Program-made: the position numbers and the translations under genes
Notes under the pieces: model-generated
What the model was told of the DNA's origin: nothing
Database searches by the model: none
What the model saw: the letters and a program-made list of their open reading frames with translations, nothing else
IMG/VR virus record: IMGVR_UViG_3300028578_000003
Coordinates: 32,001 to 96,000 of that record
Strand: one strand, 5' to 3'
From: a virus
Length of the DNA: 64,000 bases
Shown: one piece after another, positions 11,135-22,050 of the stretch
How the letters are laid out: each line of letters opens with the position of its first letter
Position numbering within the stretch: position 1 is the first letter of the stretch

Positions 11135-11875
11135 ATGCTCCCCGTCACCACCTCTTCCCCGTACGCTCCCGGCATGCTCGATCCCCGCATACGCCAGCTC
11201 ACTTCCAAGGCAGACGCAGTCGCCGCCGCGCGTACGGTGACGACTCCGGACGAGATCGGACGGTTCGAGGAAATAGCGAGACAAACAGAGGCTGGTCGCG
11301 AATACCTAGCGTCGGGCGAATGGCTTTCCTATCGCGCGGTAATTGCCAGTCGTGGGGCCACCCCGACCAGCCGACCTAAGACACTCGCGGAGCTGGCTCG
11401 ATATCTGCAATACCGCGCCGACCAGGTCCCCGAAACCAGCGACCCGGCGGCGGCTCACCGCGACGCCTACCGGCTAGCCGCCTTCGAGGTCTCCGCGCTG
11501 GACATACAGCTCGCGAGCACGGTCACCTGGCCGGTCATGCACAGCGGCATGCGGTTCCCCGAGGCGCTACGCGCGGCCATGAGCGGTGCCCACATCGCCC
11601 GGGCTGGCTGGCCGGCGGGCTCGTACGTGTTGGTGCGGACCGGGTATCCGGCCGGGATCCCGATCAACGAGAACACCGCGGCGGCGACCGGGCTGCCTGT
11701 GGGGACGCCTGGGGTGTTCTTGCCGTACCTCGAGCGCTGCGACGCGAACGAGGCCGCCGCTGTCGCGCTCGGCGTGGCGGGAGAGTACGTGTTCCAGCCG
11801 TGGACGCCGGGCCAGGAGGACGTCTTCGGCGGCGACTGGCGGGCGATCAGTGGGAGGGCGGGGCTGCTGACCTAG
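11135..11875 (+). CDS. DUF2829 (Tad2-like) domain protein with N-terminal extension
   Basis: C-terminal MRFPEALRAAMSGAHIARAGW...FLPYL...PWTPGQEDVFGGDW matches the DUF2829 pattern; the start could be 11174. Confidence 0.75.
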   Translation: MLPVTTSSPYAPGMLDPRIRQLTSKADAVAAARTVTTPDEIGRFEEIARQTEAGREYLASGEWLSYRAVIASRGATPTSRPKTLAELARYLQYRADQVPETSDPAAAHRDAYRLAAFEVSALDIQLASTVTWPVMHSGMRFPEALRAAMSGAHIARAGWPAGSYVLVRTGYPAGIPINENTAAATGLPVGTPGVFLPYLERCDANEAAAVALGVAGEYVFQPWTPGQEDVFGGDWRAISGRAGLLT

Positions 11876-13860: not shown

Positions 13861-14514
13861 ATGTCCGAGGCTGCCCACCCGCAGCAAGGTGACCCGGCGG
13901 CCGCTGACGCGGACGCCCCGCTGGCCGTGAAGAACCCGTTCCCGACGTCGATGACGGTGCCGGGCCCGGACGGGCGGCAGGTGGCTGTGGAGCTCGCGAC
14001 GCTGGACGGGAACGTGTTCGCGCCGGGGCTGGACGCGCTGGGGCTGGAGCCGCATGTGCGGCAGTACGTCACCCAGTACTGCGCGATGTGGTCGGCGTCG
14101 GTGGTGACCACCGGGGCGCTGGCGCAGCGGTGGCCGATGCCGCCGCGGCGCGGGCAGCTGCAGTTCACGGCGAGTCAGCTGCACGCGATGCTGGCGTTGG
14201 CCGCGGACGAGCGGCTGGTGAGCGTGATCGCGGAGCCGTTGACGGGGAGCCTGCGGTTCGTGGTGGAGTCGCCGCGGCTGGCGCCTATGGGTGTCTGGAA
14301 TGTTGAGCCGCCGCCCATCGGTCTGCCGATCTCGGCGTGGTATGAGGGCCGTCAGGGTGACGGCGACCCCGGTGGTCTGGCCGCCGCGCATCGGCAGCTC
14401 GAGGCGCTCAGGGTGCGGGCCAAGGTGTCCGCGCAGGAGTGGGAGAACGCGATCGCGGAGGCGGAGCGGAAGCTCGCGCCGGCGGGCGGGTTCGTGCAGG
14501 GGGTCGGCGGATGA
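13861..14514 (+). CDS. hypothetical protein
   Basis: SD GAGGAG; 217 aa. Confidence 0.75.
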   Translation: MSEAAHPQQGDPAAADADAPLAVKNPFPTSMTVPGPDGRQVAVELATLDGNVFAPGLDALGLEPHVRQYVTQYCAMWSASVVTTGALAQRWPMPPRRGQLQFTASQLHAMLALAADERLVSVIAEPLTGSLRFVVESPRLAPMGVWNVEPPPIGLPISAWYEGRQGDGDPGGLAAAHRQLEALRVRAKVSAQEWENAIAEAERKLAPAGGFVQGVGG

Positions 14515-14747: not shown

Positions 14748-15064
14748 ATACGAGGCAGTCGGATTCGCGGGTGCCGGGCCGGCCGCCGCCGGCGTCGTTC
14801 GGGCGGGAGGGCGTTGATGGGCCGCCGTCGGAGGATTTCTCGATCCGGGGCGGTCAGGCGTTCCACCTGGTGTTGCACGTCGATGTGACGCCGTCGGTGG
14901 AGTCGCTGGACGCGTTGCGTCAGGCGGTCGCGGCGACCACTCGTCAGGGTGTGCTGGAGGGGTTCGCGGCCGCGTACGAGGAGATGGAAGCGGAGGTCGC
15001 TGCCGCGTCTGGGCCGGGCCCGGACGCTGCCGCGCCGGGCGAGCCGGCGAGCGGGTCGACGTGA
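14744..15064 (+). CDS. hypothetical protein
   Basis: GTGA overlap. Confidence 0.65.
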   Translation: MNTRQSDSRVPGRPPPASFGREGVDGPPSEDFSIRGGQAFHLVLHVDVTPSVESLDALRQAVAATTRQGVLEGFAAAYEEMEAEVAAASGPGPDAAAPGEPASGST

Positions 15065-15699
15065 CCACGGTCATCGGCATCGCCCGGCCGCACGGTGTGT
15101 GGATGTCGGCGGACACCGGCACCAACGTCTTCGACCGGCCGGTCGTCGGGTCGACGTGGAAGATTCGGCGGTTGCTTGACGGCGGGGGCAGTCCGGTCGC
15201 GCTGCTGGGTATCTCCGGGACGGCGGCCGCGATCTCGGTGCTGCGCAAGGCGTTCGCCGACGAGCCGGTCGACCAGCTCGGCGACGGTGACCCGGAGGAT
15301 TGGTCGTACGCGATCGCCTCCCGGATGACGAAGGCGATGGTTGAGGCCGGGCTGACCGACCACGACACCGGGCAGATGGACGGCACGATGCTGCTCGGCA
15401 CGCCTGGGCACATGTGGACGCTCGAACATCACCTGGCTATACGGATGCCCGACGGGATCGGGGCGGTCGGGTCCGGTGAGGCCGTGGCCATCGGCGCGCT
15501 TGACGTGTTGCTGGAGGATGACGTGCCGCTCAGTCAGGCCGTCTACCGCGCGGCCACGATCGCGATCAACCGGGACCAGTGGTCAAGGCTGCCGCTGCAG
15601 AACGATTTCCTGCCTGCCGCCGACTCGGCTCTGCGCGCCGCTGGCCTGACCATCCCCACGCCGGCCGCCGGCGACACTGCGTCCGGGTCGGCTCGCTAG
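15061..15699 (+). CDS. Ntn-hydrolase, HslV/proteasome beta-subunit-like peptidase
   Basis: N-terminal (M)TTVIGI, ADT, KI, GISG, AVGSG, A(A)TIAINRD. Confidence 0.75.
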   Translation: MTTVIGIARPHGVWMSADTGTNVFDRPVVGSTWKIRRLLDGGGSPVALLGISGTAAAISVLRKAFADEPVDQLGDGDPEDWSYAIASRMTKAMVEAGLTDHDTGQMDGTMLLGTPGHMWTLEHHLAIRMPDGIGAVGSGEAVAIGALDVLLEDDVPLSQAVYRAATIAINRDQWSRLPLQNDFLPAADSALRAAGLTIPTPAAGDTASGSAR

Positions 15700-15850
15700 C
15701 CGCCCGTTGTTCCTGCCGCGTGTCGCGCGGCGCTGAGGTCCGCCGCCCGTAATGGGCCGCGGGCCTTTTCTGGTCTTCCGGCCGCCAGTCCCGCAATGGG
15801 CCGTGCCGCCGGGCTTTTTTCACACCGATCCCGAAATGGGAGTGATCACC

Positions 15851-16393
15851 ATGTCCGGACCAGCGGCGCAGGAGCGCAAGCATGGCCGTACGCCGAACTC
15901 GGTCACGGCCGGGGATTGGCGTGAGTACGACGACGTGCCGTTCGACGGTGCGCCGGAGATGCCGAAGTTGCCGGGGCGTAAGAAGTGGCACCCGCTGGTG
16001 GAGGCGTGGTGGATGACCACGTCGACGTTGCCGCACGCGGTCAGCTGGCGCGACGACGACTGGCAAAAGGTGTTCGAACTGTTGTTCGAAAAGCAGCGGT
16101 ACTACACCGCGGCGACGCCGAAGGAGCAGACCACCGCGCAGCTGACGGAGATCCGGCGGCGGGAGGACGCTCTCGGTATCGGGCAGCAGGCGCGGATCGC
16201 GCTGCGGATCCGGTACAAGCAGAAGGTGGAGCCCGGCGCGGCCGGCGACGGGCCCGGCGGCGCGGTCGAGGTGGTAGACGACGGTTCGGTGAAGCCGGCC
16301 GGGCAGGTGATCCCGATGGCGGACCGCCGCAAGACGATCCTGAGTCGCGCGCCCGGCGGCGAGGACACCGAGACCGCGACCGGCTCCGGCTGA
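15851..16393 (+). CDS. terS: terminase small subunit
   Basis: MSGPA, WW...PHA..W...DW, EIRRREDALG...RLRI pattern; directly upstream of TerL. Confidence 0.8.
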   Translation: MSGPAAQERKHGRTPNSVTAGDWREYDDVPFDGAPEMPKLPGRKKWHPLVEAWWMTTSTLPHAVSWRDDDWQKVFELLFEKQRYYTAATPKEQTTAQLTEIRRREDALGIGQQARIALRIRYKQKVEPGAAGDGPGGAVEVVDDGSVKPAGQVIPMADRRKTILSRAPGGEDTETATGSG

Positions 16394-16413
16394 GCCCGGG
16401 CCGGTGAGCGGGG

Positions 16414-18182
16414 ATGCCTCGCAAGATGATCCTCGCCCCGCACCATGACCAGAACCTCAGTTTGGGATGGCTCGGCGTGTCCTGGATTGAGTTTTTTGTC
16501 CGGCACGGGCCCGGCGACGTCCAGGGCCAGCCGGTGCGGCACGGCGAGGAATACACAGAGTTTCTCGTCAACGCGTACGCGGTCGGTGAGCACGCCCGCA
16601 ACAACCACCTGCTGTACGACTCCGTGTTCTTGAGCCGCCCCAAGGGCCGGTGGGCCCCCACCGGGCAACTGGTGGGGGCCCACCGGCCTGACAAGGCTGC
16701 GACAAGAGCGGTCTCGCCGGCCGCATCTGCCTGTTCGAGGCGTTCGGCCCCTGCCGTTTCGCCGGATGGGCGCGCGGAGGCGAAACCTACCGTGACCCTT
16801 ACGGGTTCGGGTTTGAGTACACGTATGCCGAGGGTGAGCCGATGGGCCGGCCGGTCGTGGCCCCGTTCGTGCGGATCTGCGCGACCGAGGAGAACCAGAC
16901 GGGCAACACCTACCGGACCGTCTACTACAACCTGACGGACCGGGACTGCCCGCTGTATCACTGGCCCGGCCACGACGCCGGCAAGCGCGAGGTGTTCCTC
17001 GCCGACGGCGGCGAAATTCGCAGCAGCACAGCCAGTGCGGCCAGCAAAGATGGTGGCCTCGAAACGCATTCCACAATGGACGAAAGTCACCTCTATACGA
17101 CCGCTGAGTTGCGGGAGATGAAAGACGTCGTCGCCGCGAACATGTGGAAACGCAAGCGTGGCGCCGGCACCTGGTATTTGGAAACGACGACCATGTATGA
17201 GCCCGGCGAGGAGTCCGCCGCCGAGGCCACGTACAACGAGGCCGCCGCTCTCGCCGAAGGCCGTAAGCGGCGGGGCTCCCACCGCCTATATTTTGACCAC
17301 AGGTGGGGAGAGGTACCCGACCTGCACGACGAGCCGGTGCTGCGCCAAGGCCTACGGGACGCGTACGGCGACGCGATGGCCTGGATGGACGAGGACTCGC
17401 TCGTCGACCAGGTCTACGACACCCGGACCAGCGAGAACCGGGTGCGGCGATTCATGCTGAACGCGCAGACCAGCGCGAAAGACGCGTGGATCAAGTACGA
17501 GCAGTGGATCGCCTGCAAGGACTCCACGAAGGAGCTCCGGCCCGGCGACATGGTGTGCCTGGGCTTCGACGGCTCGGTGGGTGGCCCGGACGCGGACGCG
17601 ACCGCGCTGGTGGCGTGCCGGGTCTCGGACGGGCACATCGAGCTGATCGGCTGCTGGGAGAAGCCCGACGGGGTCGAGGGTGAGGACTGGCGGGTTCCGC
17701 GCGAGGAGGTCGCCGCCGCGGTCTACCAGGCCCGCGCCGACTACCGCGTGGTCGGCATGTACGCCGATCCGCCGCACTGGGACGACTACCTCGACGTGTG
17801 GCACCGGGAGTTTGGGCACGAGATGCTCGTGCAGGCCACCCAGAAGAGGCCCCTGGAGTGGTGGACGGCCAGGCCGACGCAGATGGTGTCGGCGTTGCTG
17901 CGGTTCCACACCGCGGTGCTCGAACGGCGGGTCACCTACACGCCGGCGGAGGACCGGGTCGGGCGTAAGGCGGAGCTCACGCTGACGCTGCAACGCCACG
18001 CCCTTAATGCCAGGGAAGATCGACGCCGGTCGGGGTTGCACATCCGGAAGGAATATCCGAAATCACCCAGGAAGATCGATGGGGTGATGGCTGCCGTGCT
18101 CAGCTACGAGTGCCGGCAGGACGCGATCGCCGCCGGCGTCGACGCGGCGAGCGACTGGTTCATGCCGAAGCGGATCCGATGA
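16414..18182 (+). CDS. terL: terminase large subunit, interrupted by a 50-nt insertion (16648-16697)
   Basis: The first frame gives SLGW...HGPGDVQG...SRPKG. A shifted frame from 16698 gives CDKSGLAGRICLFEAFGPCRF...ATEENQT, DESH, LGFDGS, D.TAL, KIDG. Removing the 50 nt yields one ORF. Confidence 0.9.
16645..16688 (+). other. 20-bp stem / GCAA tetraloop hairpin inside terL
   Basis: GGCCGGTGGGCCCCCACCGG-GCAA-CTGGTGGGGGCCCACCGGCC with one G-U pair. Confidence 0.9.
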
Positions 18183-18326
18183 GAGCTGCCGGCCCGGGAC
18201 GGAGTGTGGGACCTTCCGGGCCGGCTACACCATCCACCAGGGGCGCCTGCCGCGCGGCGGGCGAAAGAACGTCCCCGTACCCCGCGTGGGGTCGGGGGGG
18301 AATCCACGAGGGGGGAGGTGAAGAGG

Positions 18327-18599
18327 ATGGACACCAAGACGAAGGTCGAAGCGGTCGAGGCCGGCGACGCGGTGAAGGTGGTCGACGAGCACTACGTCGA
18401 GCACGTCGCGTTGGTTACCACGGTCCACGGCGAGTTCAGCGAGGCGTTCACGCCGTGCATCAACGTCGTGTACGTGTCGAAGGACCCCGCTAAGCGAGAC
18501 CCGAACGGTCGGCAGATCGAGCGGATGTCATCGCTGCAGCACTACTCGCAAGGTCCGGACAAGATGCCCCACCCGGGCCGCTACTGGATCAACCTGTGA
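18327..18599 (+). CDS. hypothetical protein
   Basis: SD GGAGG; 90 aa. Confidence 0.7.
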   Translation: MDTKTKVEAVEAGDAVKVVDEHYVEHVALVTTVHGEFSEAFTPCINVVYVSKDPAKRDPNGRQIERMSSLQHYSQGPDKMPHPGRYWINL

Positions 18600-18704
18600 T
18601 CCATGCCGGAGCGCTACTACCTACCGATGAGGCGGGGAACGCGCCGAGGCGCCCGGCGTGGGGAATCACGAGCAGGGCCGGCCATCGCGGGTAGCCTGCT
18701 GATC

Positions 18705-19010
18705 ATGGGTAAGCGGTGGGAAGGCGTCGGTGTCACACCACGCGACTTGACGGCCGGCGCGGTCGTCATGGTGCCGGCCGGTCAGGTCAGCGCGGCGGCG
18801 AACGGCGGGCCCTGCATCATCGCGTGGGCCGTCGTGGTAGGACCCGACGATTACGACGACGCCGTCGGGCCTAAGGCCAAGTGGTGGCTCGACGTCTACA
18901 CAGGCGGCCCGGGAGCGCCGCCTCTGCCGCAGGCGTACCGGGCCGAGGAGATCCTGGGTGTGCCGGCGCTCGGCCTGAGCCATGAGGGCGCGCCACCCCG
19001 ACCGGCCTGA
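18705..19010 (+). CDS. hypothetical protein
   Basis: C-terminal part of track ORF 18603..19010; start uncertain. Confidence 0.55.
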   Translation: MGKRWEGVGVTPRDLTAGAVVMVPAGQVSAAANGGPCIIAWAVVVGPDDYDDAVGPKAKWWLDVYTGGPGAPPLPQAYRAEEILGVPALGLSHEGAPPRPA

Positions 19011-19017
19011 CCGTATT

Positions 19018-20091
19018 TCAATACAGCATGTCGCGGGGTACCTCGGTCTTGTCCGCCAGGTCGTCGACCGCCTCCCGGACGGCGGCGACGTACTCGCGCA
19101 GGTGTTCGTCCACGATCTCGCGGGAGGCCCTGGCGAAGGGGTCGGGCGGACGGGTCTGAAGCTGGACCGTCTGGACGAGGTCGGCCGGGTCCGCGGGGAA
19201 GCACCCCTCGAACATCACGTCCCCCGACTCGACGTCGACGAGCCGCCACGCACTGGCGGGCAGGTCGTGGTCGAGGACGATCGGGACGTCGCCGACCCTG
19301 TCCCGCGCGGACCGTCCGGACCTCACGGCGTGGATTGCCTCGAGCGCTCTGTGCCCGACACGCAGTTCCCGCCTCGGCGGCGGCCGGCCCTCAACCCAGA
19401 CGCCGAGCCGGTCGCGGCGGAACGCGTTGGTGGGCTCGGTATTGATCTCCCTGGTGACGTCGTCGACTGACAGCCACGGCGCCGAACCGTACGCGTCCGC
19501 TGGCCGGTCGGGGTCGTGCTCGTACAGCTGCTCCATGTACGCCTGCGAGACCTTGCCGTCCTTCGGCCAGCCCGGGGGACGCGGCGGCGGCGTGAACAAC
19601 GGTTCCGGTGTGCCGGGCGGAGCGAGCCACACTTCCCCGATGACGTTGCCGTCGTCGATGTAGCCGACGTTGTCCCACGTGCCTACCAGCTGCTGCCAGT
19701 ACCGCTGCCGCAGGTACTCGGTGTCCTGCTTCTGCTCCAGCTCCGGCTCGTTGGAGGAGGGCAGAAGCGGAAAGTCGGCCTCGAACACGGCCGAGTCGGT
19801 CTGCTTCACCCACCGGCCCCGCGCCGGTTCTGTCTTCTCCGCCCGCATGGCGGCGTGCCACAGCTGGTAGATGTCTGACGCGCTCGGTGTGACTGACAGG
19901 TTCGCCGGCCGCGGCGGCGGTGGTTCGGCGGCGAGCTCGGCGAACCGGTCACGGACGCGCCGGACGTCGATGTGGGCCTGTGCCGGTTCGCCGTCGTGGA
20001 CGTCGACGAGTTCGGCGAACCGCTCGCGGTCGATCGGGCTCATGCCCATGCGCACGCGGTCGTACCGCGCTCTGGAGATCGGCAACCTCAT
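19018..20091 (-). CDS. hypothetical protein, antisense to the head operon
   Basis: 357-aa ORF exactly filling the gap before the portal. Confidence 0.7.
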   Translation of the reverse strand: MRLPISRARYDRVRMGMSPIDRERFAELVDVHDGEPAQAHIDVRRVRDRFAELAAEPPPPRPANLSVTPSASDIYQLWHAAMRAEKTEPARGRWVKQTDSAVFEADFPLLPSSNEPELEQKQDTEYLRQRYWQQLVGTWDNVGYIDDGNVIGEVWLAPPGTPEPLFTPPPRPPGWPKDGKVSQAYMEQLYEHDPDRPADAYGSAPWLSVDDVTREINTEPTNAFRRDRLGVWVEGRPPPRRELRVGHRALEAIHAVRSGRSARDRVGDVPIVLDHDLPASAWRLVDVESGDVMFEGCFPADPADLVQTVQLQTRPPDPFARASREIVDEHLREYVAAVREAVDDLADKTEVPRDMLY

Positions 20092-21939: not shown

Positions 21940-22050
21940 GCTGACCGCTCACCACCACGAGACACCCCCTTAACAGGGCCCCCCGCCAGAGGCCACAAGC
22001 CTGCAACCTGGCGGGGGGCCGCCATACCTCGGCTGATTGGAGGGCCCGCG

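What the first reader, a model, noticed from the sequence alone, without database searches (positions are those of the whole stretch)
16630..16710. Terminase Walker A split by an exactly 50-nt hairpin between matched GGC codons: candidate programmed translational bypass
Seen: the reading is AGC CGC CCC AAG GGC(16645-47), then a 50-nt insert ending in GGC(16695-97), then TGC GAC AAG AGC. Skipping 16648-16697 restores SRPKG-CDKSGL and one continuous TerL. The insert is a 20-bp stem with a GCAA tetraloop and a G-U pair valid on the mRNA strand, and the first GGC forms the base of the stem. The downstream frame is closed by TGA at 16689 and has no start until 16842, so two separate proteins cannot give an intact ATPase. 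Known: T4 gene 60 bypasses 50 nt between matched Gly codons with a take-off hairpin; yeast mitochondrial byps are hairpins between matched codons; bypassing has been proposed in a Streptomyces phage terminase. Unlike gene 60, there is no stop after take-off here (next codon CGG). Inference: a hairpin-driven ribosome hop that rations terminase. Alternatives are precise DNA excision between the GGC repeats, a -1 shift at AAG-G, or an inactivating palindromic insertion.
Basis: partly seen in the sequence, partly recalled or inferred. Interest (0 to 1): 0.92.

Follow-up and report, generated by a model that had tools for sequence, protein, structure and literature searches.

The report
Mobile hairpin coding gap in terminase
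The DNA-packaging enzyme gene of this high-GC (Streptomyces-type) phage is cut inside its ATP-binding loop by a 50-base RNA hairpin that belongs to a family of about two dozen related hairpin inserts found at just two spots in relatives' terminase genes, and ribosomes most likely hop over it, which would be a new bacterial family of translational bypass elements.

Summary
Window 16648-16697 is a 50-nt insert: a 20-bp stem with one G-U pair, a GCAA loop and a 9-nt tail. It lies between two GGC codons inside the terL P-loop. Removing it gives SRPKG|CDKSGL, the uninterrupted sequence of Streptomyces phage Samy TerL and of the closest relatives (L012-L014).

It is not a one-off. Among 172 related terL loci, every frame break lies at this site (Walker A, 12 distinct inserts) or at Walker B (12 hairpin inserts and one single-base insertion). 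All 24 hairpins form one family with a GCCCCCCGCC...GGYGGGGGGC core.
- Stems covary: 14 of 19 pairs show compensatory changes, and 0 of 500 shuffles match.
- 20 of 21 fold better as sense RNA than as antisense RNA.
- Flanking codons are identical or wobble-synonymous in 16 of 24.
- All five in-frame inserts carry an in-frame stop.
- Interrupted genes are otherwise intact (569-595 aa; dN/dS about 0.15-0.4).

The best reading is a non-autonomous mobile hairpin that is skipped from GGC to GGC by translational bypassing. This was not shown experimentally, and reads could not be inspected. Earlier notes of this scan report analogous hairpin gaps in terL of other phage groups. In the library searched I found only phiHau3 10-nt terL inserts, T4 gene 60 and mention of yeast mitochondrial bypassing.

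The parts
15752..16393 (+). terS (small terminase), the gene directly upstream of terL
   Evidence: Pfam PF25673 Terminase_7, E 1.6e-12. The same gene precedes terL in related loci.
16414..16647 (+). terL first coding segment (78 codons, MPRK...SRPKG), ending at the take-off codon
   Evidence: 62% identical to residues 1-76 of Samy TerL. PHROG 9 terminase large subunit.
16645..16647 (+). proposed take-off codon GGC (Gly78), which forms the bottom three pairs of the stem
   Evidence: Read directly from the sequence. The seven relatives whose insert follows the Gly codon all have GGY here.
16648..16697 (+). 50-nt coding gap; its exact omission restores the P-loop PKG|CDKS
   Evidence: The nearest relatives L012, L013 and L014 read AAG/AAA GGC TGC GAC/GAT with no insert.
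16645..16688 (+). hairpin: 20-bp stem (16645-16664 with 16669-16688), GCAA loop 16665-16668, G-U pair 16663/16670
   Evidence: It is the best match to the family covariance model R1 in the whole 163-kb record (47.9 bits on the + strand, 46.2 on the - strand).
16689..16697 (+). 3' spacer TGACAAGGC, with TGA (16689-16691) in the landing frame and the proposed landing codon GGC (16695-16697)
   Evidence: Stop triplets are enriched in the 3' spacers of the family (16 of 24 elements; 0.049 against 0.011 per nt; p 1e-6).
16698..18182 (+). terL second coding segment (494 codons plus stop, CDKSGL...KRIR), with no start codon of its own before 16842
   Evidence: 56% identical to Samy TerL residues 77-556. 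PHROG 9, E 1.4e-36. The Walker B region HSTMDESH is intact at about 17067-17090.
16648..16935 (+). zero-frame continuation read by ribosomes that do not skip the gap (the ORF 16414-16935 gives a 173-aa product)
   Evidence: the ORF listing.

Best explanation
The 50 nt at 16648-16697 are a non-coding gap made by a small, non-autonomous, hairpin-shaped mobile element that sits in the P-loop codons of an otherwise functional terL gene. The proposed mechanism has four steps:
1. Ribosomes decode ...Ser-Arg-Pro-Lys-Gly.
2. The peptidyl-tRNA(Gly) leaves GGC 16645-16647 at the foot of the hairpin.
3. The ribosome passes over the 44-nt hairpin and 6 further bases without decoding them.
4. The same tRNA re-pairs with GGC 16695-16697, and decoding resumes at TGC 16698.

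This gives one continuous TerL of about 570 residues (translational bypassing).

Shown here:
- the anatomy of the insert;
- the exact restoration of the conserved protein;
- the empty site in close relatives;
- a family of 24 homologous hairpins at two terL sites, with covariation, sense-strand G-U pairs and matched codons;
- purifying selection on the interrupted genes.

Inferred:
- that the gap is skipped by the ribosome rather than removed from RNA or DNA;
- how a 15-21-bp stem is traversed;
- the efficiency, and any regulatory use.
For: 1. Exact restoration. Omitting 16648-16697 gives SRPKGCDKSGL, as in Samy TerL. The empty site AAG GGC TGC GAC is seen in L012 and L013 (90-91% identical in the first segment) and L014 (85%; AAA GGC TGC GAT).

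2. Recurrence at two sites only.
- tblastn of Samy TerL on 172 loci finds frame breaks only at residue 76 (Walker A) or residues 200-203 (Walker B).
- Distinct Walker A inserts are 50, 47, 56, 47, 52, 46, 47, 52, 58, 49, 47 and 48 nt.
- Walker B hairpin inserts are about 43-59 nt.

3. One RNA family.
- The alignment A2 of 23 of the 24 elements has a conserved GCCCCCCGCC...GGYGGGGGGC core.
- 96.8% of cells are paired and 14 of 19 pairs show compensatory changes.
- 73 double-change cells are seen against 21 in shuffles (0 of 500 reach this), and the signal collapses when partners are slid.
- Model R1 hits nothing else with a strong score in about 650 kb of loci, and it recovers L097, which was not used to build it.

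4. The structure is on the mRNA.
- There are 46 G-U pairs on the sense strand.
- The sense RNA fold is more stable than the antisense fold in 20 of 21 elements.
- A G-U pair at A2 columns 17/34 is present in 11 of 23 elements.

5. Codon logic.
- The codon before the gap and the last codon of the gap are identical or wobble-synonymous (GGT/GGC, TTT/TTC) in 16 of 24 elements.
- This includes 7 of the 7 whose insert follows the Gly codon.
- The gene 60 family shows the same wobble behaviour (10.1101/2022.08.31.505936).

6. Read-through is blocked.
- All five in-frame inserts carry an in-frame stop (joint shuffle probability 1.6e-4).
- In this window the landing frame is closed by TGA two codons before the landing codon.

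7. The gene is alive.
- With the gaps removed, all interrupted genes on long enough contigs give 569-595 aa with no other defect.
- Between insert-bearing genes dN/dS is mostly about 0.15-0.4, at dS of about 1 in the longer second segment.
- Portal, protease, major head and tape-measure genes in the window are intact.
Against:
- No stop or rare codon follows the take-off codon. It is CGG here and GTG, GCG or TGG in relatives, unlike gene 60 and the yeast byps.
- The stems are far longer and stronger (15-21 bp, -38 to -56 kcal/mol) than any take-off stem-loop shown to work. How a 70S ribosome would pass them is unknown.
- 8 of 24 elements have only near-cognate codon pairs (AAA/AAT, AAA/AGA, TTY/GTC, TTT/CTC).
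- SD-like 4-mers are not enriched in the spacers (p 0.41).
- None of the 60 best isolated-phage hits in the phage collection shows the split, so there is no proof that a carrier makes virions.
- The patchy distribution, including near-identical genes with and without an insert (L024 and L028, 94% nt identity), shows recent gain or loss. Some carriers could therefore be freshly inactivated.
Confidence: 0.6

Rival explanations
1. Selfish insertion that kills the gene. A site-specific mobile hairpin has recently landed in terL of these (pro)phages. The carriers are defective, or depend on a helper terminase, and look intact only because the hits are recent.
For: - The distribution on the TerL tree is patchy and needs several gains or losses.
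- The near-identical pair L024 (empty) and L028 (filled) shows recent events.
- No isolated phage among the 60 best hits carries a split.
- 8 of 24 codon pairs are imperfect.
- The elements diverge less than the surrounding gene (L016 against L092, sequences).
Against: - Stems are kept by compensatory changes within lineages.
- Non-Watson-Crick positions are G-U on the sense strand only.
- All in-frame copies carry stops, which needs selection on the reading of the mRNA.
- Across 24 independent hairpin carriers there is no second frameshift or stop anywhere in terL.
- dN/dS is about 0.15-0.4 at saturated dS.
- Structural genes of this phage are intact.
Confidence: 0.13
2. Removal at the nucleic-acid level. 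Either (a) the hairpin is cut out of the transcript precisely and the ends are ligated by an unknown activity, or (b) it is deleted from a fraction of replicating genomes by slippage between the short flanking repeats across the palindrome. Either would give intact terL templates.
For: - The elements are flanked by 2-6-nt direct repeats: GGC..GGC here, TTTGTG..TTTGTG in L008, TTCGTC..TTCGTC in L009.
- By general knowledge, palindromes between direct repeats are deletion hot spots.
- Evolutionary loss has evidently been precise, since close relatives have clean empty sites.
- Conservation of the sense-strand RNA structure would also suit an RNA-processing signal.
Against: - The repeats are often only wobble-matched (GGT/GGC in L003, L004 and L040; TTT/TTC in L025, L026 and L042). 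That suits tRNA re-pairing and not strand slippage.
- The bias to sense-strand G-U pairs argues against a DNA cruciform.
- Insert-free revertants would outcompete carriers, yet the hairpins persist with covariation.
- No Rfam family, intron or ribozyme matches 16000-17500.
- The stems are continuous, with no bulge-helix-bulge motif.
- I know of no bacterial mRNA splicing of this type (own knowledge).
Confidence: 0.12
3. Assembly or base-calling error in the G run. The true 3' junction would be AAGGGC, making a 51-nt in-frame insert that adds 17 residues to the P-loop.
For: - The 3' end CAAGGC resembles the upstream CAAGGGC minus one G.
- The reads could not be inspected.
Against: - Twelve independent assemblies carry inserts of 46-58 nt at this junction, and 11 of the 12 are not multiples of three.
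- Every in-frame family member carries a stop, whereas a 51-nt version here would have none.
- Seventeen extra residues between the G and the CDKS of the P-loop would be unlikely to leave an active ATPase (inference).
Confidence: 0.03
4. A -1 (or +2) ribosomal frameshift near AAG-G or inside the insert restores the frame.
For: The two frames differ by -1/+2.
Against: - The landing frame contains TGA at 16689-16691, so a shift anywhere before 16692 terminates.
- Only two codons remain, and a shift there would leave a 16-17-residue insertion in the P-loop.
- In L003, L004, L006 and L027 the landing-frame stop abuts the landing codon.
- In-frame relatives with stops cannot be rescued by any frameshift.
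Confidence: 0.01

Closest known systems
Phage T4 gene 60 50-nt coding gap and its homologues (Huang et al. 1988; Manning and Atkins preprint 10.1101/2022.08.31.505936)
   Same: - The gap is about 50 nt long and lies in an essential, invariant motif of a phage enzyme.
- Take-off and landing Gly codons are matched, with wobble variants (GGU/GGC) read by one tRNA.
- The take-off codon lies in the 5' side of a stem-loop.
- Stems contain G-U pairs.
[quoted passage not shown]
- The element is mobile.
   Different: - The host gene is terL, not topoisomerase, and there is no sequence homology.
- The stem is 15-21 bp rather than a short tetraloop hairpin.
- No stop or rare codon follows the take-off codon.
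- No linked homing endonuclease was found.
- No enriched mini-SD.
- A nascent-peptide signal is unknown here.
- Two insertion sites are used instead of one.
byp elements of Magnusiomyces capitatus mitochondria (Lang et al. 2014; Nosek et al. 2015; cited in PMC10732093, details from own knowledge)
   Same: - They are short, G+C-rich, hairpin-forming, non-autonomous inserts.
- They occupy more than one site in protein-coding genes.
- They are flanked by matched codons.
- They appear mobile, with a patchy distribution.
   Different: - These elements are in bacterial or phage genomes, not mitochondrial ones.
- They are restricted to two sites of one gene in the DNA sampled.
- The codon after take-off is an ordinary sense codon, whereas in the yeast it lacks a tRNA.
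Candidate bypassing of 10-nt UUA inserts in Streptomyces phage phiHau3 large terminase (Smith et al. 2013; PMC10732093)
   Same: - The gene family and host group are the same.
- The phiHau3 g6/g7 junction aligns to the same P-loop, two residues 3' of this site (KGWG|KD against KG|CDKS).
- The g7/g8 junction lies just before the Walker B strand TFVVLNETH. This was judged by eye; BLASTP of the short piece gave nothing.
   Different: - There is no UUA codon here.
- The gap is 43-59 nt with a long hairpin, not 7-10 nt.
- No dependence on the bldA tRNA is implied.
- The elements form a covarying RNA family present at both sites.
Inteins in actinophage TerL P-loop and Walker B (own knowledge; an intein-like insert is seen in L003)
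   Same: - Selfish inserts target the same two catalytic motifs of terL.
- L003 carries a hairpin at Walker A and an intein-like insert of about 140 aa at DE|TH.
   Different: - Inteins are translated and removed from the protein.
- These hairpins are non-coding, usually out of frame or stop-containing, and must be skipped before or during translation.

Membership tests
Translational bypass coding gap (T4 gene 60 type) | [quoted passage not shown] | tested here: met
   GGC 16645-16647 and GGC 16695-16697, followed by TGC. Across the family 16 of 24 pairs are identical or wobble-synonymous and 8 of 24 are near-cognate.
Translational bypass coding gap (T4 gene 60 type) | Exact omission of the gap restores a conserved, essential protein sequence | tested here: met
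   SRPKG|CDKSGL equals Samy TerL and the empty sites of L012-L014.
Translational bypass coding gap (T4 gene 60 type) | The take-off codon lies in the 5' side of a stem-loop | tested here: met
   The GGC forms the bottom three pairs of the 20-bp stem. The stem is much longer than in gene 60.
Translational bypass coding gap (T4 gene 60 type) | [quoted passage not shown] | tested here: not met
   The next codon is CGG. Relatives have GTG, GCG or TGG after the Gly codon, or GCC/GCG after the Lys codon.
Translational bypass coding gap (T4 gene 60 type) | A mini Shine-Dalgarno lies a few nt 5' of the landing codon | tested here: inconclusive
   AAGG overlaps the landing codon here. Across the family, SD-like 4-mers are no more frequent in the spacers than in terL coding sequence (0.027 against 0.024 per nt; p 0.41).
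Translational bypass coding gap (T4 gene 60 type) | A nascent-peptide signal acts in the exit tunnel | not testable with these tools
   The upstream peptide NNHLLYDSVFLSRPKG is conserved in all family members with or without the insert, so conservation is uninformative.
Translational bypass coding gap (T4 gene 60 type) | The gap is linked to a homing endonuclease cassette (MobA) | tested here: not met
   No Pfam domain, HNH or other, in the ORFs flanking terL (18204-18599, 18603-19010, 19018-20091 on the minus strand, 13861-14514, 15061-15699).
Translational bypass coding gap (T4 gene 60 type) | A single polypeptide spanning the gap is demonstrated | not testable with these tools
   There are no proteomic or read data.
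byp-like mobile hairpin elements | Short G+C-rich hairpin inserts of one sequence family occur at more than one site in coding sequence | tested here: met
   24 distinct elements of 43-59 nt at two terL sites share one core. L040 (Walker A) and L008 (Walker B) share the same 15-nt 5' arm, and their 3' arms differ at one wobble position.
byp-like mobile hairpin elements | The codon after take-off lacks a cognate tRNA | tested here: not met
   These are ordinary sense codons (CGG, GTG, GCG, GCC, TGG).
phiHau3-type terL UUA bypass | A UUA codon lies at the 5' end of a frame-breaking insert of 7-10 nt | tested here: not met
   There is no TTA in 16648-16697 and the insert is 50 nt. The position is only 2 codons from the phiHau3 g6/g7 junction.
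Large terminase TerL (PHROG 9, HK97-like) | Homology to TerL over both segments, with the insert in the P-loop | tested here: met
   Samy TerL is 62% and 56% identical. PHROG 9 matches at E 1.4e-36 and 2.6e-4. Pfam found no family. The P-loop assignment rests on a weak alignment of SRPKGCDKSGL to IARKNGKTGL of HK97 TerL 6z6d (whole-sequence E 0.05) and on the motif itself.
Intrinsic transcription terminator | A G+C-rich hairpin is followed by a U tract, in an intergenic position | tested here: not met
   The stem is followed by TGACAAGGCTGCGAC and lies inside terL. Similar hairpins in intergenic places exist at window 21977-22020 and in L172 and L173.

The most novel reading that the evidence does not exclude
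Actinobacterial phages carry a previously undescribed family of non-autonomous, site-specific mobile RNA hairpins. These sit in the two ATPase motifs of terL and program 70S ribosomes to hop 43-59 nt over perfect 15-21-bp stems, with no stop or hungry codon at the take-off site. That would be the first bacterial counterpart of the mitochondrial byp elements. It would also be a bypass mechanism in which a long, stable hairpin, rather than a short A-site stem-loop, bridges the take-off and landing codons.
Probability: 0.5. Interest if true: 0.9.

Novelty: new variant of a known kind. Interest (0 to 1): 0.8.

Why it matters
Experimentally supported long-range translational bypassing is, as far as I know, limited to the T4 gene 60 family and yeast mitochondrial byps. 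The phiHau3 terminase is a 10-nt candidate.

A family of about two dozen natural variants in one gene would add three things:
- It offers a ready-made comparative data set on what a ribosome needs in order to hop: stem length, the conserved G-U pair, spacer length, and cognate against near-cognate landing.
- It suggests that long, stable hairpins can be skipped without a stalled A site.
- It means that gene callers and phage annotators systematically mis-call such terL genes as pseudogenes or as two ORFs, and so label viable phages as defective.

It also ties together inteins, phiHau3-type mini-inserts, a +1 frameshift-like site and these hairpins as alternative occupants of the same two terL hot spots.

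Tried and rejected
- Exact-match scan of genome contigs for the 36-nt core of this hairpin: 0 hits.
- The search for related loci on genome contigs with the C-terminal segment: no relatives.
- BLAST of the insert against its own 163-kb record: no second copy.
- Motif scan of viral contigs with CGGCCCCCCGCC N4-12 GGYGGGGGGCCG: only two intergenic, terminator-like hairpins, so the pattern was too strict to be informative.
- Pfam on both terL pieces: no family.
- Rfam on 16000-17500: nothing.
- A Shine-Dalgarno-like signal in the spacers: tested and not enriched, so it was dropped as evidence.
- A Pro-Pro (CCC CCC) zero-frame stall motif: seen in many elements but not in this window, not tested statistically, and not used.
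- HNH or other homing endonuclease next to terL: none found.
- DNA of P0012, a short insert at Walker B: not retrievable.
- BLASTP of the phiHau3 g7/g8 junction piece against Samy: no alignment.
- -1 frameshift: rejected because of the landing-frame TGA.
- Two separate polypeptides: rejected because the split is inside the P-loop and the second segment has no start codon before 16842.
Full report
**1. The observation**

The window reads AGC CGC CCC AAG GGC (16633-16647). Fifty bases follow (16648-16697) that end in GGC, and then TGC GAC AAG AGC.

Bases 16645-16664 pair with 16669-16688 in a 20-bp stem. It has 17 G-C pairs, 2 A-U pairs and one G-U pair at 16663/16670, closed by a GCAA loop. The fold is far stronger than shuffled sequence (z -6.4).

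The upstream ORF (16414 onward) and the downstream ORF (ending 18182) are in different frames. The downstream frame is closed by TGA at 16689-16691, and its first possible start codon is at 16842.

**2. What the gene is**

The two pieces are the large terminase.
- They match Streptomyces phage Samy TerL over residues 1-76 (62% identity) and 77-556 (56%).
- They match PHROG 9. Pfam finds nothing.
- Samy reads FFSRPKGCDKSGLGAR, so omitting exactly 16648-16697 recreates the uninterrupted protein.
- A weak alignment to HK97 TerL (6z6d) places SRPKGCDKS on the Walker A loop ARKNGKT.

The record is a 163-kb virus record with 70% G+C. In the window, terS, portal, protease, major head and tape-measure genes are intact.

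**3. Relatives**

Searching with the 173-aa zero-frame product found many truncated N-terminal TerL fragments. Their DNA was fetched. Two scans with an alignment of the first segment then gave 160 more loci.

In 172 loci, tblastn with Samy TerL finds frame breaks at only two places: residue 76 (site 1, Walker A) and residues 200-203 (site 2, the Walker B strand before DE[ST]H).

*Site 1* has 12 distinct inserts:

| Locus | Insert length (nt) |
|---|---|
| window | 50 |
| L003 | 47 |
| L004 | 56 |
| L005 | 47 |
| L006 | 52 |
| L007 | 46 |
| L016 | 47 |
| L027 | 52 |
| L034 | 58 |
| L040 | 49 |
| L092 | 47 |
| L015 | 48 (in frame, TGA in the loop) |

*Site 2* has 12 distinct hairpin inserts of about 43-59 nt: L008, L009, L011, L025, L026, L028, L030, L039, L042, L052, L059 and L097. 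L010 has a single extra T that gives TTT TGA C.

About 138 loci are uninterrupted at site 1. These include the window's nearest relatives: L012 and L013 read AAG GGC TGC GAC, and L014 reads AAA GGC TGC GAT.

**4. One family of RNA hairpins**

Aligned, 23 of the 24 elements (L097 was left out of A2) share a core GCCCCCCGCC...GGYGGGGGGC with variable outer stems.
- On the consensus 19-pair helix, 96.8% of cells are paired.
- 14 pairs show compensatory double changes.
- 73 double-change cells are seen against 21 expected. None of 500 shuffles reaches any of the five measures, and sliding the partners destroys the signal.
- The same arms occur at different sites. L040 at site 1 and L008 at site 2 share GTGCGGCCCCCCGCC / GGYGGGGGGCCGCAC.
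- The same arms also occur at different offsets within site 2. L009 and L026 differ by a compensatory C/G swap.

So the element moves.

A covariance model built from the family hits only these two terL sites in about 650 kb of loci. It recovers L097, which was not in the training set. It always scores higher on the sense strand. In the window's own record the terL copy is the only strong hit; the weaker hits are intergenic terminator-like hairpins.

**5. Evidence that the structure acts in the mRNA and that codons matter**

- The stems hold 46 G-U pairs on the sense strand. The sense RNA folds better than the antisense RNA in 20 of 21 elements. A G-U pair at one alignment position recurs in 11 of 23 elements. 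A DNA cruciform would not show this asymmetry.
- The codon before the gap and the last codon of the gap are identical or wobble-synonymous in 16 of 24 elements:
  - GGY/GGY in all seven elements that follow the Gly codon;
  - AAG/AAG in two that follow the Lys codon;
  - GTG, GTC or TTT pairs, and TTT/TTC pairs, at site 2.
- Eight elements are near-cognate only: AAA/AAT twice, AAA/AGA, and TTY against GTC or CTC.
- The pair L024 (empty) and L028 (filled), 94% identical in nucleotides, fixes one such junction as TTC | 54 nt ending in GTC | TGC.
- Wobble-mismatched pairs are what the gene 60 family shows. They are not what strand slippage would favour.
- All five in-frame inserts contain an in-frame stop (joint shuffle probability 1.6e-4). 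Stop triplets are enriched in the 3' spacers (p about 1e-6).
- Shine-Dalgarno-like words are not enriched (p 0.41), so I do not use them.

**6. Evidence that the interrupted genes are alive**

- With the gaps removed in silico, every carrier on a long enough contig gives a TerL of 569-595 aa with no other stop or frameshift.
- Between carriers, dN/dS is mostly about 0.15-0.4 in both segments, at dS of about 1 in the longer second segment.
- On a TerL tree the carriers are concentrated in two clades. Six of the nine genes in the window's clade carry a site-1 insert. The distribution is patchy within clades and needs several gains or losses.

**7. Mechanism**

*Frameshifting* is excluded. The landing frame is closed at 16689, and in-frame relatives carry stops.

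*Two polypeptides* cannot work. The cut is inside the P-loop and the second piece has no start codon.

The remaining possibilities are a ribosome hop from GGC to GGC, excision from RNA or DNA, or dead genes.

I favour the hop (0.6), for four reasons:
- the matched and wobble-matched codons;
- the sense-strand structure;
- the stops that block read-through;
- the selection on the gene.

Arguments against the hop:
- Nothing slows the A site after take-off.
- The stems are much stronger than any known take-off stem-loop.
- A third of the codon pairs are imperfect.
- No isolated phage in the collection carries a split.
- I have no protein, RNA or read data.

How the ribosome would pass the stem is unknown. 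A shunt-like passage across the base of the re-formed hairpin is my speculation only.

**8. Comparison with what is known**

In the paper library searched, the relevant hits were these:
- the phiHau3 terminase with two 10-nt UUA inserts (PMC10732093);
- the gene 60 family (10.1101/2022.08.31.505936);
- reviews.

The phiHau3 g6/g7 junction aligns two residues 3' of site 1. Its g7/g8 junction lies next to site 2 by eye; BLASTP found no alignment. The same two hot spots are therefore used by different kinds of insert. L003 also carries an intein-like insert at Walker B, and L010 has a prfB-like +1 site.

The present elements differ from phiHau3: no UUA, and 43-59 nt with a long hairpin. They differ from gene 60: another gene, no stop after take-off, and no endonuclease. 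They differ from yeast byps: a bacterial setting and no unassigned codon. I class them as a new variant of a known kind.

Earlier unchecked notes of this scan describe analogous hairpin gaps in terL of other phage groups. None concerns this TerL family.

**9. Verdict**

The element is better described as one member of a mobile, covarying hairpin family at two terL sites.

Translational bypassing is the best-supported explanation, but it remains unproven.

Noticed in passing
L003:961-2742 (also L002): The related TerL that carries a 47-nt hairpin at Walker A also has an intein-like insert of about 140 aa within Walker B (MDEA|LALDT...LTHN|THLY).
   Followed up: no
L010:2564-2580: At the Walker B site this relative has one extra T, giving TTT TGA C. 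That resembles the prfB +1 frameshift site. The protein P0019 from another assembly also ends at FVVF followed by a stop.
   Followed up: partly
protein P0012 (contig in ERZ1761209; DNA not retrievable): The fragment ends KETFVVF-LPNS-TKPTYT. That implies a short insert of about 10-13 nt before DETH, possibly of the phiHau3 type.
   Followed up: no
window 21977-22020; L172:9526-9557; L173:4859-4889: Intergenic, terminator-like hairpins share the same GGCCCCCCGCC...GGCGGGGGGCC core as the terL inserts. The mobile hairpins may derive from, or be related to, phage terminator hairpins.
   Followed up: partly
3' spacers of the 24 elements (window 16689-16697): Stop triplets are about four times enriched in the spacers (16 of 24 elements). 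In 6 of the 12 site-1 elements one lies in the landing frame, at or within three codons 5' of the landing codon. I have no explanation.
   Followed up: partly
alignment A2, columns 17/34: A G-U wobble pair at a fixed stem position is present in 11 of 23 elements (G-C in 8, A-U in 3, as in this window). This hints at a recognised feature rather than mere stability.
   Followed up: no
window 11135-11875: An ORF with a Tad2-like (Thoeris anti-defence 2) domain, Pfam PF11195, E 1.9e-8.
   Followed up: no
many elements, e.g. L003:797-802, L008, L009, L011: The conserved C6 run is read CCC CCC (Pro-Pro) in the zero frame two or three codons after the take-off codon in most elements, though not in this window (GCC CCC). 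It could be a stalling motif. I did not test this statistically.
   Followed up: no
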